In this document: positions 3,631-31,287 of the stretch, in pieces
Layout: the number at the start of each line of letters is the position of its first letter
Position numbering within the stretch: the first letter of the stretch is position 1
Source of the DNA: Haloquadratum walsbyi C23
Lineage (GTDB): Archaea > Halobacteriota > Halobacteria > Halobacteriales > Haloferacaceae
Reading direction: 5' to 3'
Length of the DNA stretch: 32,000 nt
NCBI RefSeq assembly: GCF_000237865.1
Contig: NC_017459.1
Location: 2,190,001 to 2,222,000 of the forward strand
The notes under the pieces: generated by a model
Databases searched by the model: none
What the model saw: only the letters and a program-made list of their open reading frames with translations
What the model was told of the DNA's origin: nothing
Made by a program: the position numbers and the translations under genes

Positions 3631-4569
3631 ATGGATTCAATCAACCGGATGGCGGTTGAGCTTGTTGATGAGGCGATTGATTTTGCTGAAGAACTTCGAA
3701 TCGTTCCACAGGAATTGGATTCGGGTGCGAGAGTGCTTGATTTTGGTGTAAATGCAGAGGGTGGCGTTGAAGCTGGATTATTACTTGCTGAAATCCAGAC
3801 TGCTGGATTAGCAACTGTGCAAACCCGGATGGATGAGATTGCAGGCGTGCAAACACCACACGTCGAAGTTCAAACAGACCACCCTGCGGTAGCATTACTG
3901 TGTTCGCAAAAAGCAGGATGGGAGCTTGAGTTTGATGACCCAACGTTCGAGGGACTTGGGGCAGGACCAGCCCGTGCACTTGTTGCTGAAGAGGATGAAT
4001 TCCAGGCACTCGAATATTTTGATGAGTTTGACTTGGCTGTGCTTAGCGTTGAGAGCATTTCACTTCCATCTGAGACTGTTATTGAACATGTCGCGAATAA
4101 AACAGATGTCAATCTGAGCGGGGTTATGCTCCCAACATATGCCACTGGATCGGTTGTTGGAAGCGTCACAGCCGCAGCGCGAGCTGCAGAACTTGCATTA
4201 TTCCGATTATTTGAACTTGGATATGATGTTCGAAACGTTCATTCAGCATTTGGGTCAGCACCGATTGCACCAATTAGCTATAATGAAAGTATCGCAATGG
4301 GGCGAACGAATGATGCATTAGCATACGGGGGCACTGTGCATCTCACCGTCACGGCGGATGACCCTGTACTCAAAGAACTCCCCTCGACTGCTCGTGATAA
4401 ATATGGAACACCATTCGAGGAGATATTTGCTGAGGCAGATTGGGATTTCTATGATGTTCCAGAAAGTGTGTTTGCGCCCGCACAGGTGACTGTTGATGTG
4501 ATTGATGGTCCAACCCACGTTCTTGGCGAGACGAATGAGGAGCTTGTAGCTGAGTCATTTGAATATTAA
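3631..4569 (+). CDS. mch: methenyltetrahydromethanopterin cyclohydrolase
   Basis: 312 aa. The length and N-terminal region (SINRMAVELVDEAIDFAEEL...) and the overall acidic sequence match archaeal Mch as remembered. Confidence 0.85.
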   Translation: MDSINRMAVELVDEAIDFAEELRIVPQELDSGARVLDFGVNAEGGVEAGLLLAEIQTAGLATVQTRMDEIAGVQTPHVEVQTDHPAVALLCSQKAGWELEFDDPTFEGLGAGPARALVAEEDEFQALEYFDEFDLAVLSVESISLPSETVIEHVANKTDVNLSGVMLPTYATGSVVGSVTAAARAAELALFRLFELGYDVRNVHSAFGSAPIAPISYNESIAMGRTNDALAYGGTVHLTVTADDPVLKELPSTARDKYGTPFEEIFAEADWDFYDVPESVFAPAQVTVDVIDGPTHVLGETNEELVAESFEY

Positions 4570-6107: not shown

Positions 6108-6156
6108 CCCCTCGGGAGGGATAAAGATCGATATCTATGATTTGGTCTGAATTGTT

Positions 6157-6363
6157 CAATGCGGTTTGTACGTGCGTGAGGAACACGGCGATATGTGCAA
6201 CGCTGATATGAATAGGACGGAGAACATCCGTTTCGACATCAACAACACAGAAAGTAACTCCCAGTTTGCGTCCAACTTGGACGGGGATGTGAGTGTCGAC
6301 TGGTTGGCGCAGTCCAGGGTCATCCTTCGTGGTTTATCAGATAGATTTTCATCGAGAAAATAA
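6157..6363 (+). pseudogene. tnpB: C-terminal remnant (about 69 codons) of an IS1341-type tnpB
   Basis: The translation CGLYVREEHGDMCNADMNRTENIRFDINNTESNS...VDWLAQSRV aligns with the C-terminus of the intact TnpB at 19356-20720 (RGLYVCEEHGD..FNADVNGAENIRLDINQSNSES...GWLAQPGV). No upstream tnpB sequence is present, because the M48 gene start lies at 6107. Confidence 0.75.
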
Positions 6364-6437
6364 GTGGTAGAATGCAAACCCTACTATCACAACTGCGGTC
6401 GAGAATAATCGCTCTTCAACGCCGGGAGGATATCAAT
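6157..6437 (+). mobile_element. right-end (RE) remnant of an IS1341-type element: tnpB 3' fragment plus terminal non-coding segment
   Basis: Downstream of the remnant stop, tgcaaaccctactatc and gggaggatatcaat (6424-6437) match tgcaaaccctaatatc and ggaggaggatgtcaat on the minus strand after the intact tnpB. Similarity is lost after about 6437-6441. Confidence 0.6.
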
Positions 6438-8389: not shown

Positions 8390-8706
8390 CTCTCCCGCGG
8401 TTGAAGACCTGTCTCTTACCCATAAGTTCGTGGAGTCGTAACCGGACGTTTCAGACGCTGTCAGAGGTATTTTGAACGCAGAAAATCGAGGAGAGAGGCG
8501 ATTCAAACAGTGATATTGGCTGTGGGGGTTATAGAACGCCGGTAATCAACTCCACTACGATTGTTCCAAAGAGGTATTAAATCTGTAGATACCGAGGATT
8601 TCAGTTGTGCTCGCCGATCCCGATCCCGTTCCGCTAAAGTCTTGACTCGAGTTGTGGGTAAGAGATAGGGTTGAAGACGCGGGTATTCTCCTTGTACTCT
8701 ATAACT
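8390..8706 (-). mobile_element. solo LE-type palindromic unit (IS1341/PATE-like end), split by MITE copy 1
   Basis: With 8409-8678 removed, the sequence reads ...cccgcg gttgaaga cgcggg tattctccttgtactctataact. This is about 35 nt homologous to the unit upstream of the intact tnpB (20816-20830 plus 22771-22802). Confidence 0.5.
8409..8668 (+). mobile_element. MITE copy 1 (260 bp) with IS4/Tn5-like termini
   Basis: Termini are ctgtctcttaccca... and ...tgggtaagagatag. It is flanked by a perfect 10-bp direct repeat ggttgaagac (8399-8408 and 8669-8678). The interior is collinear with copies at 20831-21089 and 30590-30848. Confidence 0.85.
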
Positions 8707-19290: not shown

Positions 19291-19480
19291 ATTGACATCC
19301 TCCTCCGCGTGAACGCGGAGGAATCCCACGGCACCACACCGCTTGGGTTGGGATATTAGGGTTTGCAGTCTCCCACCTCTGCCCGAGGTTGGAATCCTCG
19401 GGAAAGGTCATAAAGGTAGACTCCGGGCTGTGCCAACCAGCCGGTACTCCTATCCCCACCCAAATCGGGTGCAGACTCAG
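19291..19480 (-). ncRNA. predicted omega RNA (reRNA) scaffold region of the TnpB element
   Basis: By analogy with characterised TnpB systems, the guide RNA scaffold overlaps the tnpB 3' end and runs to the RE. A 9-bp hairpin tcctccgcg-tgaa-cgcggagga lies at 19301-19322. The 5' extent is not determinable by eye. Confidence 0.3.
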
Positions 19481-20720
19481 AGTTACTTTGATTAATGTCG
19501 AGACGGATATTCTCCGCCCCATTCACATCAGCGTTGAACGCATCCCCGTCGCCGTCGCCGTCGCCGTGTTCTTCACACACGTACAAGCCACGCTCAACAC
19601 GCTGACTCTCGTCTTCTCTCCCACAGACACAACACGTCTTGCTTGTGTCGCGCTCTGACACTTCTCCGACTTCGATTCCCTCACCCTTCGCTTTGTATTC
19701 GAGGATGTTCGAGAACCTGTCGAAGGCCCACCCGTGCAAGTCAAGATTACCGTGCTTCCCCCAGTTCTTCGACTCACCGTTACCGTTGTCGTCTTCGCGG
19801 ACACCAGCGAGTTTTCCGATGTTGATGCGCCCAACACCGTTTTCGATGCATCGCTGAACGATGTGTGTCGCCAAAGAGTGGAAAAAGTGGGTTCGGCGCT
19901 CCGACCACTTCGCATGGAGTCGAGTAGCCCTGTCACCACCAGAGTCATCACACTTGGCGATTTCTTTCGGGAAGTAGTAGCCGTCCTGTTTCAGGCGGTT
20001 GCCGGGGTAGAGGTCGGCTTCCTCGGTGCTGTACGAGATAGCGGCGAAGTTACAGATACCGAGGTCGATACCAGCAGTCTCGGTGCCGGGCGCGGTGGGT
20101 GTCTCGATTTCGTGCTTGCAGACGAGGTGAAGTTCCCACCGCTGTTTCGCCCTATCGTAGACTGTTCGAACCTGTTGGAGGTTCTCGACGGTGACACCGG
20201 GTGCGGTTTCGTACTCAATAAGGATGTATTCCCACGCTTTCGGGTGTTGTTTGTGATTCGCGCCTTTTGAGAGTCGAACGCGGTTGTTCTTGGTGTCGTG
20301 TTTGATGCCGTTCTGCTTCCACGTTACTGTTGAACGAGGGTGTTCTTCGTGGACGCGGCGACCCTGTTGGTCGTAGTAGTTTTTTTTGCGGTAGCCGGGC
20401 GGATTCGCTCGACTGTCAGACTTCCTCTTGCCGTACCACGAGTTGAAGGCTTCAGCGAGTTCCTCCAGAACGCGCTGACTGGATTGACTGTGCAATCCCT
20501 TGTAGTTATTGTGAGTCTTCAACTCGGTTTTGAGGTCGCCGTGGTCGGGTATCTCGCCCGTGGCTTCCCACTGTTGTCGAGAGTGGTAGTTGGCGACATT
20601 CCAGAGTTTCGATGCACTCCACCCATGCCGGTCAAGCGAGTCCGCTACCTGTGCGTGGTTGCAGATCTTCGCTTGATGGGTTCGGTGGACTTCCAACATT
20701 CTGAACGTCTGTATAATCAT
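19356..20720 (-). CDS. tnpB: TnpB (IS1341-type RNA-guided endonuclease, OrfB family)
   Basis: 454 aa. RuvC-I is AGIDLGICN. The zinc finger reads CCVCG...YVCEEHG. RuvC-III is FNADVNGAENI. An alternative start is Met8 (20699, MLEVHRT), with gtataaat about 25 nt upstream. Confidence 0.9.
   Translation of the reverse strand: MIIQTFRMLEVHRTHQAKICNHAQVADSLDRHGWSASKLWNVANYHSRQQWEATGEIPDHGDLKTELKTHNNYKGLHSQSSQRVLEELAEAFNSWYGKRKSDSRANPPGYRKKNYYDQQGRRVHEEHPRSTVTWKQNGIKHDTKNNRVRLSKGANHKQHPKAWEYILIEYETAPGVTVENLQQVRTVYDRAKQRWELHLVCKHEIETPTAPGTETAGIDLGICNFAAISYSTEEADLYPGNRLKQDGYYFPKEIAKCDDSGGDRATRLHAKWSERRTHFFHSLATHIVQRCIENGVGRINIGKLAGVREDDNGNGESKNWGKHGNLDLHGWAFDRFSNILEYKAKGEGIEVGEVSERDTSKTCCVCGREDESQRVERGLYVCEEHGDGDGDGDAFNADVNGAENIRLDINQSNSESAPDLGGDRSTGWLAQPGVYLYDLSRGFQPRAEVGDCKP
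19547..19568. repeat. hexanucleotide tandem repeat (cgtcgc x3 plus partial) inside tnpB, encoding GDGDGDGD
   Basis: Direct reading. The remnant copy at 6157-6363 has HGDMCNAD where this copy has HGDGDGDGDAFNAD. Confidence 0.8.
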
Positions 20721-20830
20721 TTATACTCGCTTCAGTATTAACGTTTGGTGTTTGAGAATGGTGGAATATCCCGTCCAGCCATCGGCGGTGGTTGCGGAGG
20801 AGTTGTCGGATTCATCCCGCGCCTGAAGAC

Positions 20831-21089
20831 CTGTCTCTTACCCACAACTCGAGTCAGGATTTTAGCGGAACGGGATCGGGATCGGCGAGCACGACTGAAA
20901 TCCTCGGTATCTACAGTTTCAGCACCTCTTTGGAACAATTGTAGTGAGCTTGATTACCGGCGTTCTGTCACCCCCACAGCCGATATCACTATTTGAATCG
21001 CTTCTCGCCTCGATTTTTTGATTCAAAATACCTCTGAGAGCGTCTGAAACGTCCGGTTACGACTCCACGAACGTATGGGTAAAAGACAG
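20831..21089 (-). mobile_element. MITE copy 2 (259 bp), inverted relative to copies 1 and 3
   Basis: Termini are ctgtctcttacccacaac... and ...tgggtaaaagacag. It is flanked by gcctgaagac at 20821-20830 and 21090-21099. The interior is nearly identical to copy 3; the ORF-track peptides across the two copies are identical. Confidence 0.85.
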
Positions 21090-21099
21090 GCCTGAAGAC

Positions 21100-22760
21100 C
21101 TGTCTCTTACCCATAACTCAATACTAGAGGGTAATTTCGACCAAATCAGGCATGAAAAGAAGAAATCAATCAAATTTCCATCAGTATCTGCCCAAGATTA
21201 GAGAAGTATCCATGAAGCCGCTTGGAAAGCTCAGCTGAACTCGTTATTTCGGCGGGTTCTGCTGAATGAGCCGCGAAGCGCGCTCATTCAGTACCGAGTT
21301 CGTATCCTTCAGCCCACATGCGTAGCTTCTGGAGTCCTTTCCACATCGTCTTCCACCCTGGTGGCGGATCTGAACCACGATCAAGATAACCGCCGAGTTT
21401 AGCCACGCTCACTGCGTATGATTTCCCATCTTGACCGCTCAATTCTGGAAATTTCGTTTCCAGAATTGTGCGCTCTGCCTCACTCAGCAGGACCGCCGGA
21501 GATACTGAACTATCATCACGAGCAAGTTCTCGTAGCTCCAGAACTTTCCACGCGATCACTGAATACATGCTCAACAACACTTCCATCCGCTCCCAAGTCT
21601 GCAGTTGCCGTTCTTCGATGTTACAGCCACTCTTGAGCACTTTATGCCAGTCTTCAATTCGCCAGCGGAGACCGTAATAGTCGATGAGTGTCAGCGTTTC
21701 CTCAAACTCTTCGACCGATTCAGTGGTGAGCAACACCCACTGAATCGGGTCGTCATTTTCACCGACCTCGTCAACTCTCACGACATTCACCTCGATTGAA
21801 CCCTCTTGTTCAGGATTATTCTTTGGCGCGCGCAACTCACACGTTCCAGTGGCTATCGACAACTCCGCTGTTCTCGCTTCGCGCCCACCTCCCTGTTGAA
21901 TCTCGATTGTTTTGCGACCTTGCTCGGCAAGGTCGCTGCTCCAGTCAAAGAGTTTTCCAGGTTCACCATCATCAGTCCAAATCCGTCGGTTTTGACTCGC
22001 TCGGATGATGAAGCCAGCATTTTCCATCTCTCTGGTGACTCCCTCGTAGAACGCGAATGAATCTGCGCCTCGGTCATGGATAAATAGCGGGCGGATATCG
22101 TCGGCAAGCCAGTCTCTGGCTTGCCTGTCGCCACGGCTCCATTTCTCATGTTCACTGTCAAGTTGAATCGGCTCTGCTTTGCCGTTGGCATCGTACTTCT
22201 CATCGGCCTGCTGGTCCTCGATCAGCGGCTGCTGATCGATGACCCCAGTCATTCGATGGGTCCGTGGATTGATTCCGATCGTGGAGTGAAGCTTGATACC
22301 TTCGAGATCCATTTCAGAGTTGCCAATATCGCCGAGACCCTCCTTGGAGGGGTGTCTCGGAAACACGAGTTCGGTGGTATCGGAGACAATCAGGAGTTCG
22401 TCTGACCGACTCACTCTTGATTGCTGTTGCTGCTTGTGAGCAGAGAGAACCTCGTTGGGATCCACACTCTCATTATCGCAAAATCGGTATGTAGCTTTTG
22501 TGGACGCCCAGTCTCCGCAGGCAGCAGGGATGGACTCGGCAGGTGAGCTGCCGAGTTCATCCCCAAGTTGTACTAGTCGGTCACTCAGGCGCTTGTCTCC
22601 AAACTCGGCTGATCGAAACTCCGTTTGAATCCATCCTGAAACATCCATGTCACACAGCTGCCCATCTTCATCGAGTTCTGGCTTCCAACTCCGTGAGCGA
22701 CGCCCCATCTACCAATCTTGGTTCGTCTACTCTTGTATTACACTTGTGGGTAAGAGACAG
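21100..22760 (-). mobile_element. IS4-family (IS50/Tn5-like) insertion sequence, 1661 bp
   Basis: Imperfect terminal inverted repeats are ctgtctcttacccataactcaatac and (reverse complement) ctgtctcttacccacaagtgtaatac. The first 10 nt equal the Tn5 mosaic end CTGTCTCTTA. The element is flanked by gcctgaagac at 21090-21099 and 22761-22770. Confidence 0.9.
21284..22708 (-). CDS. IS4-family DDE transposase (Tn5 Tnp-like)
   Basis: 474 aa. The N-terminus FGDKRLSDRLVQLG...ATYRFCDNESV is like the Tn5 Tnp DNA-binding region. DDE context is IVSDTTEL and FIHDRGADSF. The Y(2)R(3)E(6)K signature appears in YGLRWRIEDWHKVLK. Confidence 0.9.
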   Translation of the reverse strand: MGRRSRSWKPELDEDGQLCDMDVSGWIQTEFRSAEFGDKRLSDRLVQLGDELGSSPAESIPAACGDWASTKATYRFCDNESVDPNEVLSAHKQQQQSRVSRSDELLIVSDTTELVFPRHPSKEGLGDIGNSEMDLEGIKLHSTIGINPRTHRMTGVIDQQPLIEDQQADEKYDANGKAEPIQLDSEHEKWSRGDRQARDWLADDIRPLFIHDRGADSFAFYEGVTREMENAGFIIRASQNRRIWTDDGEPGKLFDWSSDLAEQGRKTIEIQQGGGREARTAELSIATGTCELRAPKNNPEQEGSIEVNVVRVDEVGENDDPIQWVLLTTESVEEFEETLTLIDYYGLRWRIEDWHKVLKSGCNIEERQLQTWERMEVLLSMYSVIAWKVLELRELARDDSSVSPAVLLSEAERTILETKFPELSGQDGKSYAVSVAKLGGYLDRGSDPPPGWKTMWKGLQKLRMWAEGYELGTE

Positions 22761-22986
22761 GCCTGAAGACGCGGGTATTCTCCTCGAAATTCTATAATAA
22801 CTCTGAGCATTCGCTTACACTGAATATCACAATGCAGTGATTGACCGGTACAGTACACAATGTGGCATAGTCGGCTTGTGACGTCGCCAAATGCTCATAT
22901 TGATACATTGTTAATATGATGAGGGAATATGTGTAATACCAAGAGACATACTCACGGTGCTATTGAGTTCCGCTATAACTAATACA

Positions 22987-27550: not shown

Positions 27551-27841
27551 CTAAAACGATATTAAAAATTCATATGGCGGGGTACCTGGCTGTGTCTGTT
27601 TGACACCAAGAAGTGAAATATGAGGGTTCACCCGCTTTCTTAATTGCCGTTTTTCACCTGGTTGTACGTACTCCTCCACGCGAATCTTCGCAAATTCAAC
27701 CTCATATTCATCTTGAGTATTATCCCCATAGTAAATCTCCAACAGCGGGTCATCGTCTGATACCTTCGTAACATCAATTGGAGATTTGTCTAAATCTTCA
27801 AGAGCAGATATAACCTCGAGACCTGCTTCTTCAACGTTCAT
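27551..27841 (-). CDS. hypothetical acidic protein
   Basis: 96-aa ORF with acidic haloarchaeal-like composition. No motif recognised. Confidence 0.4.
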   Translation of the reverse strand: MNVEEAGLEVISALEDLDKSPIDVTKVSDDDPLLEIYYGDNTQDEYEVEFAKIRVEEYVQPGEKRQLRKRVNPHISLLGVKQTQPGTPPYEFLISF

Positions 27842-28058
27842 ACGTTGATTGTAGAGTTACATCCTAAAATGATACAGGGGACTATACGCTTTCAATATCC
27901 TGTGTACGTCGTCGTTCTGTCGTATAGCTCTGTTTGTGACTTATTTCCGACCACAGATTGTATGATCTATGGAACGCTTGCTATTCGATTTATTTGCTGA
28001 GCTACTCCGCCCCAGTAGTTCCATGTTTGGCTTTTCCTATCTAAGATTGAAATAAACT

Positions 28059-28158
28059 CACATTCTGGAGACTCAATATAGATTTCAGAGTTACACCAAC
28101 ACCTGCCGTTGAGAGTACTGATGGGAGGGTTCCATCGGTGAACAGATATCCCATAATA
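28059..28158 (+). repeat. repeat block A (about 100 nt; conserved core 28100-28152)
   Basis: The core cacctgccgttgagagtactgatgggagggttccatcggtgaacagatatcc is about 85 % identical to 29552-29603. Weaker similarity extends to cattctggag / cattccagag on the left. Confidence 0.75.
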
Positions 28159-28389
28159 AAGTGCTCGAGAGACGCGACAATCGGAGTTTGACTATATGGG
28201 ACAGGACATTTAGGATATGTATGATCTGTGTTATATATGACTCATTCAGATACGCAAATTAAGCCTGACACAGCCGACATACTAAGTTAAATTGCAGAAA
28301 GTGAGAACGCAAGCCTCGATAGTCTGCTGAGGCGGATGCTCGTCCGATATATATCTGTTGAATTACGACAAGCAACATAACAAATCCTC

Positions 28390-28662
28390 TTGACACGCAC
28401 ACATACTGAGGACACTACTACGACCAGCTCAGACCCACTGTGTCCGTACTGTCATTCCCCTGTTTCATCAATCTTGAACTTGAACAGAAATTCTACAAGC
28501 ACTGTCAGTATATCCAGCATCTATCGGTGTGAGGACAGATATTGCCCTCTGGGTATGTTTATTGAGACAGGTATGGAAAAAACTGAATACGGAGATCTCC
28601 AACTCCTCACAGAGATTATTGACAATAGCGATGAGCGAGATACATATGACATCCGAAGTTGA
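28390..28662 (+). CDS. possible small zinc-ribbon protein (only a TTG start available)
   Basis: CPYC ... CEDRYC cysteine pairs. An in-frame stop lies immediately upstream of the TTG at 28390 and there is no ATG or GTG near the 5' end. It may be non-functional. Confidence 0.3.
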   Translation: MTRTHTEDTTTTSSDPLCPYCHSPVSSILNLNRNSTSTVSISSIYRCEDRYCPLGMFIETGMEKTEYGDLQLLTEIIDNSDERDTYDIRS

Positions 28663-28867
28663 TGATGAGGAGTTCCAGACGCTTGCAGATCCGATGGATA
28701 TGGATACACTCCGAGGGGACTACTTCGAGGGTGGTGTATTTCTTCTTCTCGATAGGACATGCACTATCGACACAGATGGGAACGGGAAGTACCGCGTCCA
28801 TGAGGGCAAGGAGCAGGTACTGACTGACGCAGATTTTAGTGAGGTTAGGTCGCTACTGAGGAACTAG
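28631..28867 (+). CDS. hypothetical small acidic protein
   Basis: 78 aa from the ATG at 28631 (MSEIHMTSEVDDEEFQTLADP...). It overlaps the preceding ORF by 32 nt. Confidence 0.4.
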   Translation: MSEIHMTSEVDDEEFQTLADPMDMDTLRGDYFEGGVFLLLDRTCTIDTDGNGKYRVHEGKEQVLTDADFSEVRSLLRN

Positions 28868-28984
28868 GGAGAATTGCATAGAGCGATTCGCAAGGAGTTG
28901 AGTTCACACACAGCTTAATGAATCACCCGTCAGAACGAGCATGCGCGTTTATGAGGTTGGTAGTATTCGAGTCCGTGGCGTGGA

Positions 28985-29350
28985 CTAGGCTGGGGTAACG
29001 CTGTAGACTCGTGTCCCAATATGATAGACCATACTGACTGTATAGCCCAATACACCGATCGTTGCGAGTACTGCTCCGATGAAGACCGCTGAGCCACCCA
29101 AGCTGAGAATTCCACCCAGACTTACGCCAGCAAGAGCAAATCCGAGAGCTCCAATCCCCGCAGTGAGGGCTGGTGCCCATGCTCCAATCTTCACAGCACC
29201 GAGAGCAGTCACCCCCGCGATAACTGTGAAGATGAGGGGCGAGTAAAGACCGAGCGGGGCGACACCCATTAGGACTGCCCAGTACGCTCCAGCTGAGAGA
29301 ACGAACAGTCCGAGCGGTATGAGTATCGCTCTGAGTCTCACCTTTTCCAT
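28985..29350 (-). CDS. small Gly/Ala-rich membrane protein, hypothetical
   Basis: 121 aa with four hydrophobic segments. The other ORFs overlapping it (28923-29417, 28930-29115) are shadows. Confidence 0.55.
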   Translation of the reverse strand: MEKVRLRAILIPLGLFVLSAGAYWAVLMGVAPLGLYSPLIFTVIAGVTALGAVKIGAWAPALTAGIGALGFALAGVSLGGILSLGGSAVFIGAVLATIGVLGYTVSMVYHIGTRVYSVTPA

Positions 29351-29507
29351 ATACTCGGCGACGAGAGTGGGCGATAAATAACTTAGTGCTCTGTTTCACG
29401 TAGAATGACACGCGCATGCTCTGTATTGAACCATTCCTGTCTGAATATGAGTAGTCCTCTACACTGTATTCAGTTCAGACTCCCCTTCACAACTTACAGG
29501 CTCAGTA

Positions 29508-29611
29508 TACATTCCAGAGGTACACTAACCCATCATAGAAGACCGCACTCACGCCTGCCGTTGAGAGTGCTGAAAGGAGAGTTCTGTCGGTGAACAGATA
29601 TCCGCATACTG
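29508..29611 (+). repeat. repeat block B (direct copy of block A; core 29552-29603)
   Basis: See block A; same orientation, 1.45 kb downstream. Confidence 0.75.
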
Positions 29612-29785
29612 AGAACATCAATTGTTGGGTTGGACTGGTCGAATAAAAACGTCTGTTGCAACTCTCTCACTCAGTAACTCACTTTGATTATCGCGGTAGT
29701 GCTGTTCGAAACCCAATACTGACTCCTCGCGTACTGGGTGGGATTCGGAGCTTATTTTTGTCTCATTCGACTATAAAATTGTATA

Positions 29786-30022
29786 ATGGTATCAGACAAA
29801 GAACGGCTTGAGGAGGCTCTCAGGTGGCTCAAGGAGGTGAAAAGGCTTAAACAAGATAAGGAGCGACTCTATTCAAACTCTTTTTTGCAGGGATACAAAC
29901 AATATATTATTCCCCACAAATACCACGACATGGAGGGAGTATCGGAGGATGAAGTTGACAAGATAATCCAGCGATATGAACGTGATCTCGAAGATTTAGA
30001 GACAGGGAACTTCCAGAAATGA
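29786..30022 (+). CDS. hypothetical small charged (coiled-coil-like) protein
   Basis: 78-aa ORF rich in E/K/R/L. No motif recognised. Confidence 0.4.
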   Translation: MVSDKERLEEALRWLKEVKRLKQDKERLYSNSFLQGYKQYIIPHKYHDMEGVSEDEVDKIIQRYERDLEDLETGNFQK

Positions 30023-30364
30023 GTAGTGTCTCAAATATTATCTGGGTATCTTCGCGTTTATTTAGTTACTGATTATTTTGATCGTGCCAGTCCTCGTACT
30101 AGTTTTTCCTGTTTGCATGGATTCCGATTTCTGTCGGCAGTTCAGGGTACTCGATATACGTTGATTTGACTCCTTTTAGGATTCGTCGGCATCAGTTAAT
30201 CTCATTGGTGTACCGATATAGTATCCTGTCTAGTTCCCACGTCTGTCCTCACAGAGTAACGAGCGGAGATTCTCAAACCGCTCAAAAATGACGGAGATAT
30301 TTGGGTCAATCGCCGAACATTTAAGACGACATTCGAAAAACGGCTACCCCAGTGGGGTGACCAT

Positions 30365-30589
30365 TCAAATCAGTTCAGAGCTGTTGAACGTCTCATCACG
30401 CTCGTATTCAATGAGTTTCAACAGAGCGTTCAAAAACTCTGTCTCGTTGTGATCATCTGTGCTTCGAAGCGCATCTTGTGCACGCTCTCGGGTAACCTCA
30501 TCTTTGGGTACACTCAATCCGTTCATAAAATGGATTCGGGGTGCTGATTGAAGTACTTCCTCCCCATACCAGCGACCATCTTGGTAATC
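30365..30589 (-). pseudogene. 5'-truncated ORF fused to the MITE terminus
   Basis: The tracked ORF 30365-30604 begins MGKRQ. These five codons are the reverse complement of the MITE end ctgtctcttacccat (30590-30604). The native reading frame therefore enters from the MITE boundary without its own start. Confidence 0.5.
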
Positions 30590-30848
30590 CTGTCTCTTAC
30601 CCATAAGTTCGTGGAGTCGTAACCGGACGTTTCAGACGCTCTCAGAGGTATTTTGAATCAAAAAATCGAGGCGAGAAGCGATTCAAATAGTGATATCGGC
30701 TGTGGGGGTGACAGAACGCCGGTAATCAAGCTCACTACAATTGTTCCAAAGAGGTGCTGAAACTGTAGATACCGAGGATTTCAGTCGTGCTCGCCGATCC
30801 CGATCCCGTTCCGCTAAAATCCTGACTCGAGTTGTGGGTAAGAGACAG
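30590..30848 (+). mobile_element. MITE copy 3 (259 bp), no target-site duplication
   Basis: Termini are ctgtctcttacccataag... and ...tgggtaagagacag. The flanks are cttggtaatc (left) and accttgacga (right) and do not match. GC content jumps at 30849. Confidence 0.85.
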
Positions 30849-31287
30849 ACCTTGACGACGACCCGGCCTACCTGGCGATCCCGCATCCAGAAGGACTACC
30901 CGACCGACCGCTCGACCAGCTACGAAGAAGTGAACCTCGCTGTCGATGACAGCACCTACGACACGGTCTCGCGGCTCCGGTCGTACCTGAACAACCGCTG
31001 GCGGGACAGCGAGGCACTGTCCCCGTCGCGGCAGGCCGACCGGATGACCACCGAGAGCGTTCGGCGTGTCATCCGCTCGCTGACCGTGGAGGCCGACGTG
31101 CGCCCGCAGAGCATCGAGGGCGGGCAGGCGACCCTGAGGACGTGACGCCCACACGCTTCGGCACAGCGTCGCTTACAGGATGCTCCACGAGGAGGACGGC
31201 TACACTCTATACGATGTCCGGAACCGGCTGCGCCACGCAACAATCAAAACAACCGAAGAACGGTACGACCATTTCGACCGCATCTGA
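30849..31287 (+). pseudogene. tyrosine recombinase (phage-integrase family) gene fragment, 5'-truncated and frameshifted
   Basis: Frame 0 gives ...ALSPSRQADRMTTESVRRVIRSL...IEGGQA. Frame 1 gives PEDVTP. Frame 2 gives HTLRHSVAYRMLHEEDGYTLYDVRNRLRHATIKTTEERYDHFDRI*, which contains the R, H-x-x-R-type box and the catalytic Tyr region. Frame changes occur at C-runs near 31132-31135 and 31148-31150. Confidence 0.7.

What the first reader, a model, noticed from the sequence alone, without database searches (positions are those of the whole stretch)
28059..29611. Two directly repeated ~100-nt blocks with a conserved hairpin bracket a 1.4-kb cassette of small genes: candidate cargo-carrying IS200/IS605-like (PATE-like) element, or a pair of paralogous micro-ORFs
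Blocks A (28059-28158) and B (29508-29611) have the same orientation and a 52-nt core about 85 % identical.

Reading 1, element ends. The core folds as ctgatgg-gagggtt-ccatcgg in A and ctgaaag-gagagtt-ctgtcgg in B. One G:C to A:U compensatory change is present, along with one mismatch. Hairpins in direct rather than inverted orientation at both ends are the hallmark of IS200/IS605-type single-strand transposons. The segment between the blocks contains no transposase. It holds a zinc-ribbon-like ORF, an overlapping acidic ORF and a small membrane protein.

Reading 2, micro-ORFs. On the minus strand each block is entirely covered by a short ORF. These are 28041-28154 (MGYLFTDGTLPSVLSTAGVGVTLKSILSLQNVSLFQS) and 29502-29618 (MFSVCGYLFTDRTLLSALSTAGVSAVFYDGLVYLWNVY). 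Four of the seven differing codons in the core are synonymous, which hints at a conserved micro-protein family below normal annotation cut-offs.

The gccgttgagag motif also resembles the gcggttgaagac / ggcgttgaagag segments of the other element-end units in this window.
Basis: partly seen in the sequence, partly recalled or inferred. Interest (0 to 1): 0.7.

Follow-up and report, generated by a model that had tools for sequence, protein, structure and literature searches.

The report
Two decayed copies of a small membrane-protein gene
The two repeated ~100-nt blocks are not transposon ends. They are truncated minus-strand leftovers of a 62-residue membrane-protein gene that is intact in related Haloquadratum genomes, so the finding is ordinary gene decay in a recombining accessory region.

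Summary
**Observation:** The repeat is real. Window 28094-28151 and 29546-29603 are 84% identical, in direct orientation, and are the only two copies in the window.

**What the blocks are:** Both are coding sequence on the minus strand. They belong to an uncharacterised family of 61-67-residue proteins with two predicted helices. I found the family intact in at least 9 different Haloquadratum contexts, and at about 40% identity on Halobellus and Halorientalis plasmids.
- Intact members are under purifying selection: pairwise dN/dS is 0.12-0.55, dS reaches 0.9, and variation is concentrated at third codon positions.
- Block B (29502-29618) keeps the family's promoter-like box and start codon. 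It has lost 72 nt, which removes the N-terminus and helix 1. Population alleles of B carry other deletions, one of which shifts the frame.
- Block A (about 28073-28155) is an orphan 3' fragment. It starts at codon 30, carries a 23-nt frameshifting deletion, and is fused to unrelated DNA.

**Hairpin:** The proposed hairpin is not conserved; two of its 7 pairs are broken in 10 and 6 of 12 copies. It is no more stable than shuffled sequence.

**Pairing:** Paired blocks occur only in contigs orthologous to the window. Everywhere else the gene is single.

**Verdict:** The IS200/IS605 or PATE reading is rejected. The micro-ORF reading is partly right. Interest is low.

The parts
29502..29618 (-). 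Block B: an internally deleted copy of the 62-residue small membrane-protein gene. It has 38 codons from the family's own ATG, or 39 from the TTG at 29621. It lacks the N-terminal segment and helix 1 (family codons 3-26) and keeps the helix-1 end, the TDR loop, helix 2 and the WNVY C-terminus.
   Evidence: tblastn with the family protein gives E=1e-16 and 79% identity over 39 aa. The DNA alignment shows a 72-nt in-frame gap directly after ATG-TTC. Population alleles exist with a 55-nt deletion (frameshift) and with 55+14-nt deletions (back in frame).
29642..29649 (-). TATA-box-like TTTTTATT lying 24-31 nt upstream of B's ATG. It is conserved in the family members that share the 78-aa neighbour. 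I infer it is the promoter of a leaderless transcript.
   Evidence: Alignment of upstream regions of window B, L004, L017, L019, L026 and L028. The role as a promoter is inferred from position only and was not tested.
28073..28155 (-). Block A: an orphan 3' fragment of a family member, covering codon 30 to the position of the family stop codon. A 23-nt deletion shifts the last 8 codons out of frame. The listed 37-codon ORF (28041-28154) starts at an ATG contributed by the junction and ends in non-homologous sequence.
   Evidence: Alignments. Homology to L026, L027 and L028 (the Zn-finger block) stops at 28157, exactly at A's 5' edge. A's 3' flank matches no family member's flank (z<=1.1).
28157..28945 (+). 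Small-gene block between the repeats. It holds a CPxC zinc-finger ORF (28390-28662) and an overlapping acidic ORF (28529/28646-28867). The same block lies downstream of intact family genes in other contigs without a second flanking repeat.
   Evidence: blastn gives 80-84% identity over about 795 nt to L026 2974-3766, L027 and L028. tblastn with the Zn ORF gives 90% aa identity. There are no Pfam hits.
28985..29350 (-). 121-residue hydrophobic protein gene, co-directional with and downstream of B. This position is variable in the family: other contexts carry unrelated genes of 69-194 aa here.
   Evidence: ORF list. The identical protein is found on 8 metagenome contigs. It is not similar to the downstream genes of L019 or L029.
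29786..30022 (+). 78-residue acidic protein gene, transcribed divergently from B. It is the most constant neighbour of the family.
   Evidence: tblastn gives 94-95% identity to L017 and L019, 76% to L026 and L028, 62% to L020 and 72% to L015. In each case the gene is divergent from the 62-aa gene.
27551..27841 (-). 96-residue acidic ORF downstream of A. It is found only in contigs orthologous to the window.
   Evidence: ORF list. tblastn finds no hit outside the orthologous contigs.

Best explanation
**What the blocks are.** Blocks A and B are remnants of two copies of a small protein-coding gene on the minus strand. The native gene encodes a protein of about 62 residues. It has a short polar N-terminus, two hydrophobic helices joined by a T-D-R loop, and a W-N-(V/P)-Y C-terminus. 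I infer it is a helical-hairpin membrane protein. The gene sits in accessory regions of Haloquadratum genomes that carry many small genes. It is usually divergent from a 78-residue acidic protein gene and is followed by a variable gene.

**State of the two copies in this window.**
- B keeps the promoter-like box and the start codon, but 72 nt coding for the N-terminus and helix 1 have been lost.
- A is a bare 3' fragment with a frameshifting deletion, joined to unrelated DNA at both ends.

**Why they look like repeats bracketing a cassette.** The 84% 'direct repeat' is simply the shared C-terminal coding sequence. The 'hairpin' is incidental to the codons for L-F-T-D-x-T-L-x-S. The arrangement arose by recombination among paralogous small-gene modules. 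B is itself mosaic: its 5' flank is closest to the secY-adjacent copy of J07HQX50, while its 3' half and 3' flank are closest to the L026 and L020 copies.

**Shown versus inferred.**
- Shown: homology, coding constraint in the family, the truncations, the lack of a conserved hairpin, and single-copy status elsewhere.
- Inferred: membrane location, promoter function, and loss of function of A (very likely) and B (uncertain).
For: 1. **Family.** A 63-aa ORF found in L017 retrieves 14 proteins. Twelve of them are 61-67 aa and 70-100% identical, and several are annotated 'hypothetical protein [Haloquadratum]'. A and B align to their C-terminal part.
2. **Coding constraint.** Nine intact ORFs from different contexts give pairwise dN/dS of 0.12-0.55 with dS up to 0.93. 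Variable columns by codon position are 25, 20 and 40. Indels between members are in frame.
3. **Breadth.** There are 69-aa homologues at about 40% identity on Halobellus and Halorientalis plasmids. An exhaustive profile search of 1.84 billion representatives finds only 8 clusters.
4. **Truncations.** B has a 72-nt in-frame gap. A has a 23-nt gap and begins at codon 30. A's 5' edge coincides with the end of homology to L026, L027 and L028. A's 3' flank is unrelated to any family flank.
5. **Decay signs in the population.** The B alleles in L004 and L032 carry 55-nt (frameshift) and 55+14-nt deletions. Point polymorphisms in B are 3 non-synonymous to 1 synonymous.
6. **Hairpin.** Pair 29-41 is unpaired in 10 of 12 copies and pair 31-39 in 6 of 12. 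Folding z-scores run from -1.2 to +0.6. RNAalifold finds no compensatory pair, and the covariation term is unfavourable. There is no Rfam hit.
7. **Pairing.** In the genome and metagenome scans, paired copies (spacing about 1452 nt) occur only in contigs 97-99% identical to the window. All other contexts hold one copy: intact 62-codon ORFs, plus one frameshifted copy (L031, and the matching copy beside an N-run in L017).
8. **Structure.** The AlphaFold model of the family shows helices at 4-12, 15-34 and 36-61, although mean pLDDT is only 64. Hydropathy peaks at residues 19-30 and 42-55.
Against: - B retains an open frame, its start codon and the promoter-like box. Two different secondary deletions (the window type and the L032 type) both put the C-terminal helix back in frame. 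A residual 38-39-residue single-helix peptide could therefore still be made and selected. The chance of two out of two restoring the frame is about 1 in 9, so this is not significant.
- No transcription or translation data are available.
- The structure model has low confidence.
- The exact recombination history was not resolved.
- The second copy in L017 sits next to an assembly gap and may be a scaffolding artefact.
Confidence: 0.85

Rival explanations
1. IS200/IS605-derived, transposase-free (PATE-like) element. Under this reading the two blocks are hairpin-bearing left and right ends, and the 1.4-kb interval is mobilised cargo.
For: - The blocks are direct repeats flanking small genes, and no transposase lies between them.
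- Haloquadratum genomes carry many PATEs and IS605-type elements (PMC3119063).
- A TnpB gene lies in the window at 19356-20720.
Against: - The hairpin is not conserved and is no more stable than chance.
- The blocks are coding sequence of a family under purifying selection.
- Other copies are single and are intact ORFs.
- All orthologous contigs contain the full interval.
- The Zn-finger block occurs elsewhere without a second block.
- The blocks share no similarity with any other part of the window, including the flanks of the TnpB gene.
Confidence: 0.02
2. Both short ORFs (37 and 38-39 codons) are functional, translated paralogous micro-proteins in their present form.
For: - Both ORFs are open on the minus strand.
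- 4 of 7 core codon differences are synonymous.
- B has the conserved promoter-like box and start codon.
- Two B allele types independently restore the frame.
- A 39-aa allele has been called as a gene in a public collection (P0018).
Against: - A's ATG derives from unrelated flanking sequence, and its last 17 residues are out of frame relative to the family.
- A lacks the family promoter.
- One B allele (L004) is frameshifted.
- B polymorphisms are mostly non-synonymous.
- The native family form has 62 residues and two helices.
Confidence: 0.1
3. The blocks are the two halves of one insertion event. A 1.45-kb segment like that of L026 (gene 3' part, 121-aa gene, acidic ORF, Zn ORF) recombined into a resident copy of the small gene near codons 27-30. 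This could have happened by Campbell-type single crossover of a circle, or by a deletion-coupled insertion. The result is a chimeric gene (B) and the displaced 3' part (A) as direct repeats. This reading concerns origin only and is compatible with the best explanation.
For: - B is mosaic. Its upstream region and 78-aa gene are 88% identical to L017, while its core is 93-94% identical to L026 and its 3' flank matches L026 and L020 (z of 30-40) and not L017.
- A starts at codon 30, and B's deletion ends at codon 27.
- The A junction shows microhomology with the end of the L026-type sequence.
- Deletion-coupled insertions are described for Hqr. walsbyi (PMC3119063).
Against: - A's 3' flank is unlike the flank of the presumed resident copy in L015 and L017.
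- A is only 84-87% identical to B and about equally distant from every member, so the event would be old and its traces are blurred.
- No allele lacking the insertion was found.
Confidence: 0.25
4. The conserved core is a structured RNA or a cis-regulatory element (an sRNA, or an RNA antisense to the small gene) on the plus strand.
For: A folds into a 7-9 bp stem. Both blocks lie in divergent intergenic-looking regions.
Against: - There is no Rfam hit at either threshold.
- There is no covariation.
- The substitution pattern follows minus-strand codons.
- The plus-strand ORF seen in L017 is not conserved in L015 (my translation of the sequence).
Confidence: 0.03

Closest known systems
Uncharacterised 61-67-residue 'hypothetical protein' family of Haloquadratum (for example J07HQX50_02471; P0001-P0012), with 57-141-aa relatives in other haloarchaea
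   Same: B and A align to the C-terminal half of the family in the same frame and on the same strand. B shares the family's start codon, upstream box and divergent 78-aa neighbour.
   Different: Both window copies are truncated. B lacks codons 3-26. A lacks codons 1-29 and is frameshifted near its end. There is no Pfam, NCBIfam or PHROG model for the family, so its function is unknown.
PATEs and IS200/IS605-type elements of Haloquadratum (Dyall-Smith et al. 2011, PMC3119063)
   Same: Non-inverted repeats at the two sides of a transposase-free segment, and a short palindrome inside the repeat.
   Different: The palindrome is not conserved. The repeats are coding sequence. Copies elsewhere are unpaired. 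There is no presence/absence polymorphism, and no relation to the ends of the TnpB element in the window.
Deletion-coupled insertions and mosaic replacement between close relatives in Hqr. walsbyi (PMC3119063)
   Same: There are sharp homology breakpoints at 28156, inside B, and at 30322. Segments have different nearest relatives.
   Different: No donor and recipient pair, and no pre-insertion allele, was recovered here. The history is therefore inferred.
Partial gene duplications at integration sites (attL/attR-type repeats of a gene's 3' end)
   Same: Directly repeated 3' portions of one gene flank an inserted segment.
   Different: The repeats are only 84% identical. The interval holds no integrase. 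The left flank of A does not continue the gene's native 3' flank.

Membership tests
IS200/IS605 family / PATE | Encodes TnpA (Y1) and/or TnpB; or, for a PATE, has ends related to those of a resident IS605-type element | tested here: not met
   No Pfam hit for any ORF in 27551-30022. The blocks match nothing else in the window, including the flanks of TnpB at 19356-20720. Only elements inside this window could be compared.
IS200/IS605 family / PATE | Conserved subterminal imperfect palindromes (hairpins) at both ends | tested here: not met
   Two of the 7 stem pairs are mostly unpaired across 12 copies (10/12 and 6/12), and 3 pairs are invariant and so uninformative. Folding energy is within the range of shuffles. 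There is no compensatory pair.
IS200/IS605 family / PATE | Discrete unit found at several unrelated sites, with presence/absence polymorphism | tested here: not met
   Paired blocks occur only in contigs orthologous to the window (97-99% identical). 12-13 such contigs all carry the interval. All other contexts hold a single gene.
IS200/IS605 family / PATE | Insertion next to a specific short target without target-site duplication | not tested
   No empty site is available for defining junctions.
62-residue Haloquadratum small-protein family (P0001-P0012) | Significant sequence similarity in the family's reading frame | tested here: met
   B: tblastn E=1e-16, 79% identity over 39 aa. A: 13 of the 18 core residues are identical to B, and the core DNA is 77-87% identical to family members.
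62-residue Haloquadratum small-protein family (P0001-P0012) | Full-length ORF of 61-67 codons with two hydrophobic helices | tested here: not met
   B has 38-39 codons and only helix 2 is complete. A holds about 19 in-frame homologous codons followed by a frameshift.
62-residue Haloquadratum small-protein family (P0001-P0012) | Purifying selection on the ORF | tested here: inconclusive
   Met for intact members (dN/dS 0.12-0.55). For the window copies only 4 point polymorphisms in B (3 non-synonymous, 1 synonymous) and several indel alleles are available.
62-residue Haloquadratum small-protein family (P0001-P0012) | Family upstream region (TATA-like box at -31 to -24, same ATG) and divergent 78-aa neighbour | tested here: met
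   Met for B. Not met for A, whose upstream DNA is homologous to an unrelated L026-type intergenic region.
Integrase-mediated insertion (attL/attR) | Near-identical core repeats and a recombinase gene at one end of the insert | tested here: not met
   The repeats are 84% identical. There is no recombinase in 28156-29501.

The most novel reading that the evidence does not exclude
The small gene could be a preferred recombination point for exchange of small-gene cassettes in Haloquadratum accessory regions. Three breakpoints fall at codons 27-30: A's 5' edge, the end of B's deletion, and the switch in B's nearest relative. The gene downstream differs in almost every context, and integrase genes lie within 1.3 kb or two genes of the small gene in three contexts (L019, L026, L030). 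Separately, the 38-39-residue single-helix remnant of B may still be selected, because two independent secondary deletions restore its frame.
Probability: 0.1. Interest if true: 0.5.

Novelty: new member of a known kind. Interest (0 to 1): 0.18.

Why it matters
The result removes a false candidate for a cargo-carrying single-strand transposon. It also shows how decayed fragments of very small genes can mimic mobile-element ends, because they appear as direct repeats with an incidental hairpin.

It documents a narrow, uncharacterised family of small two-helix proteins. An exhaustive profile search found only 8 clusters at 50% identity among 1.84 billion representatives. The family has a constant 78-residue divergent partner and variable downstream genes. 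It adds concrete examples of gene decay and mosaic replacement to the known low coding density of Haloquadratum genomes.

None of this would surprise a specialist.

Tried and rejected
- **A's N-terminus.** I first thought the sequence upstream of A (28156-28210) was the decayed N-terminal part of the gene, with an ATG at 28207-28209 and a shared CCGATTGTC. I rejected this because the stretch is collinear with an unrelated intergenic region of L026, L027 and L028.
- **Downstream gene.** I tested whether the 121-aa gene downstream of B is homologous to the 122-123-aa genes downstream of family members in L019 and L029. It is not (E=0.8 and 3.4).
- **A's 3' flank.** I tested whether it continues the native 3' flank of the secY-adjacent copies (L015, L017). 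There is no significant similarity.
- **Integrases.** I searched for the integrases of L019, L026 and L030 in the window by tblastn and found none.
- **Family databases.** Pfam, NCBIfam and PHROGs gave nothing for the small protein or its neighbours. The family has no hit in the phage collection, and the 78-aa protein has no hit in the plasmid collection.
- **tRNA and Rfam scans** were empty.
- **Structure prediction** gave only a low-confidence helical model (mean pLDDT 64), so I ran no fold search.
- **L022 ORF.** The 62-aa ORF at L022 515-703 turned out to be an unrelated protein.
Full report
**1. The observation**

The window has about 47% G+C and encodes acidic proteins. Its close matches are contigs from hypersaline metagenomes and Haloquadratum MAGs.

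The repeat finder reports a 58-nt direct repeat, 28094-28151 against 29546-29603, at 84% identity (D5). A degenerate 47-nt pattern built from the two copies matches only these two sites and never matches in shuffles. There are no tRNA or Rfam features. The description is therefore accurate.

**2. What the blocks are**

*Finding the family.* A genome-collection scan with the two most conserved core segments returned three Haloquadratum loci and six unrelated chance hits. In Haloquadratum sp. J07HQX50 (L017), LUM.47 (L015) and J07HQW2 (L009), the stretch homologous to block B is about 72 nt longer. It forms a 61-63-codon ORF on the strand that corresponds to the window's minus strand.

*Size and spread of the family.* A protein search with that ORF found 14 proteins. 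Twelve are 61-67 residues long and 70-100% identical, and several carry the label 'hypothetical protein [Haloquadratum]'. The window peptides align to the C-terminal part of the family. The consensus is MSFADTDIQSLGQSPIVHGLLWFVVISICGYLFTDRTLISALSTATVSAVFYGGLVYLWN(V/P)Y.
- Relatives of 69 residues at about 40% identity lie on plasmids of Halobellus sp. DFY28 and Halorientalis litorea.
- An exhaustive profile search of 1.84 billion representative proteins found only 8 clusters. All share an HG-x-x-W-F motif and a C-terminus close to V-Y-x-W-(N/E/Q)-P-Y.
- No Pfam, NCBIfam or PHROG model matches.

*Predicted fold.* A low-confidence AlphaFold model (mean pLDDT 64) gives three helices at 4-12, 15-34 and 36-61. 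Hydropathy peaks at residues 19-30 and 42-55. I infer a small helical-hairpin membrane protein.

**3. Coding or structure?**

*Coding signal.* Nine intact ORFs from nine different genomic contexts give pairwise dN/dS of 0.12-0.55, with dS up to 0.93. Variable alignment columns fall 25, 20 and 40 at codon positions 1, 2 and 3. Length differences between members are in frame. The opposite-strand ORF seen in L017 is closed in L015 (my translation of the sequence).

*Hairpin.* Twelve copies of the 58-nt core were aligned.
- Three stem pairs never vary and so carry no information. Pair 29-41 is unpaired in 10 of 12 copies and pair 31-39 in 6 of 12.
- Only copy A folds into the full stem. Folding energies are indistinguishable from shuffles, with z between -1.24 and +0.59.
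- RNAalifold chooses a different structure with no compensatory pair and an unfavourable covariation term.

The sequence is conserved because it codes for G-Y-L-F-T-D-R-T-L-x-S-A-L-S-T-A, not because it folds.

**4. State of the two window copies**

*Block B*. B keeps the family's upstream region, including a TTTTTATT box at -31 to -24 from the ATG. That is the position expected for an archaeal TATA box of a leaderless transcript; this is inferred from position, not tested. B also keeps the same ATG (29618-29616). Family codons 3-26 are missing, a 72-nt in-frame gap that removes the polar N-terminus and nearly all of helix 1.

Contigs 97-99% identical to the window carry other alleles of B:
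- L004 has only a 55-nt deletion between two TTCAGT repeats. This shifts the frame (MSSADTDIQYADICSPTELSFQHSQRQA*).
- L032 has that deletion plus a further 14-nt deletion that restores the frame. It is 39 aa and is also present in a protein collection as P0018.
- The window type can be derived from the L004 type by a 17-nt deletion between two TCAG repeats.

Point polymorphisms in B are 3 non-synonymous to 1 synonymous. The pattern fits relaxed constraint. However, two frame-restoring secondary deletions leave open a residual single-helix peptide. The chance expectation of two out of two is about 1 in 9.

*Block A*. Homology to the family begins at codon 30 (GGATATCTG, window 28151) and ends near the position of the family stop (28073-28075). 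A 23-nt deletion throws the last eight codons out of frame, so the tail of the 37-codon ORF (VTLKSILSLQNVSLFQS) is not homologous protein.

The DNA immediately upstream, from 28157 to 28945, is 80-84% identical to L026 2974-3766, L027 and L028. In those contigs that block is followed by a small CPxC zinc-finger gene, not by the family gene. Homology breaks exactly at A's edge. The ATG of A's ORF lies at that junction. A's downstream flank matches no family flank (z<=1.1). A is thus an orphan internal and 3' gene fragment.

**5. Is the interval a mobile cassette?**

The metagenome scan with a 26-position invariant pattern returned 13 stretches. The two with paired matches (spacing 1451-1452 nt), and two more in which the second copy just misses the pattern, are all 97-99% identical to the window across the whole locus. 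The other nine carry a single copy: eight intact 62-codon ORFs and one frameshifted copy.

Counting as well, 12-13 orthologous contigs carry the complete interval, and no empty site appeared.

Contexts of intact genes differ widely:
- next to secY and the ribosomal operon (L015, L017, and the orthologous L001 and L038);
- within 1.3 kb or two genes of a tyrosine integrase (L019, L026, L030);
- next to HNH-repeat or GmrSD genes (L021, L022);
- next to a methyltransferase (L023);
- on plasmids (L029, L030).

A 78-81-residue acidic protein gene is divergently paired with the small gene in L015, L017, L019, L020, L026, L028 and the window. The gene downstream is different almost every time.

The zinc-finger and acidic-ORF block lies downstream of the small gene, in convergent orientation, in L026, L027 and L028 as it does for B in the window. 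There is no second repeat beyond it.

The interval holds no transposase or recombinase. The blocks have no similarity to the ends of the TnpB element or the Tn5-like IS and MITEs in the window.

PATEs, as defined for Haloquadratum, have near-terminal palindromes related to IS605-type elements and show insertion polymorphism (PMC3119063). None of this holds here.

**6. Origin (inferred)**

B is mosaic. Its upstream region and 78-aa neighbour are closest to the secY-adjacent copy of J07HQX50 (88% DNA identity, 94% protein identity). Its core is closest to L026 and L028 (91-94%, against 84-87% to L017). Its 3' flank matches only L026 and L020 (z of 30-40). A is about equally distant from all members (72-84% over 58 nt).

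The simplest account is recombination among paralogous small-gene modules. One possibility is insertion of an L026-like segment into a resident copy near codons 27-30, leaving the displaced 3' part as A. This is in line with the deletion-coupled insertions described for this genus. The unmatched left flank of A, and the absence of a pre-insertion allele, keep this at about 25% confidence.

**7. Comparison, novelty, verdict**

The blocks are truncated members of an existing but uncharacterised hypothetical-protein family. They work like gene remnants, not like transposon ends. Every tested defining feature of IS200/IS605 or PATE membership failed.

The finding is real but ordinary, so interest is low. 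The most novel reading still open is that the small gene is a recombination hot spot for cassette exchange and/or that B survives as a selected single-helix micro-protein. I put that at about 10%.

Noticed in passing
window 30306-30322 and onward to 32000: Only the last 5 codons and the stop of secY remain (minus strand, MFGD*). Contigs L001 and L038 are 97-99% identical up to this point and continue into full secY and the ribosomal-protein operon. The window (and L037 and L043, up to 30589) continues instead into a 79-aa ORF, a MITE, and DNA of 63% G+C from about 31000. That DNA holds a weak, frameshifted C-terminal half of a tyrosine recombinase at 30741-31287 (Pfam Phage_integrase, E=0.0038, 17.5 bits, below the 27.1 cutoff). 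This looks like an insertion or replacement boundary at the 3' end of secY, and it is polymorphic in the population.
   Followed up: partly
window 21284-22708 (-), with inverted repeats at 20816-20847 and 22744-22775; MITE-like copies at 8393-8692, 20815-21116 and 30574-30853: A Tn5-like IS (Tnp_DNA_bind, DDE_Tnp_1 and a weak Tn5 dimerisation domain) with CTGTCTCTTACCCA-type terminal repeats. It is probably the ISHwa2 type described in PMC3119063. Three elements of about 290 nt share those termini.
   Followed up: partly
window 19356-20720 (-) and 6153-6393: A TnpB gene (OrfB_IS605 plus the Cas12f1-like TNB domain). A fragment of about 240 nt related to its 3' end lies in inverted orientation between the M48 peptidase and the EF-Tu-like GTPase genes (74-87% complementary arms I4-I6 and I9).
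   Followed up: no
L004 about 297-433 and L032 1774-1890 (orthologues of window 29502-29621): There are three allele classes at block B in natural populations: 72-nt in-frame, 55-nt frameshifting, and 55+14-nt in-frame deletions. All sit at short direct repeats (TTCAGT, TCAG).
   Followed up: yes
L017 2043-2241: Haloquadratum sp. J07HQX50 has a second, frameshifted copy of the small gene beside a run of N upstream of rpl15 and secY. The same sequence occurs on a separate short contig (L031). The placement may therefore be a scaffolding artefact rather than a true second flanking repeat.
   Followed up: partly
L026 about 3790-3900 and L028 about 2330-2440: Where the window has block A, these contigs carry a very small CPxC...CxxC zinc-finger ORF (MECPKCESTDICSPVD...CRDCGHKWG). 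This is one more of the zinc-finger micro-genes in this accessory region.
   Followed up: no
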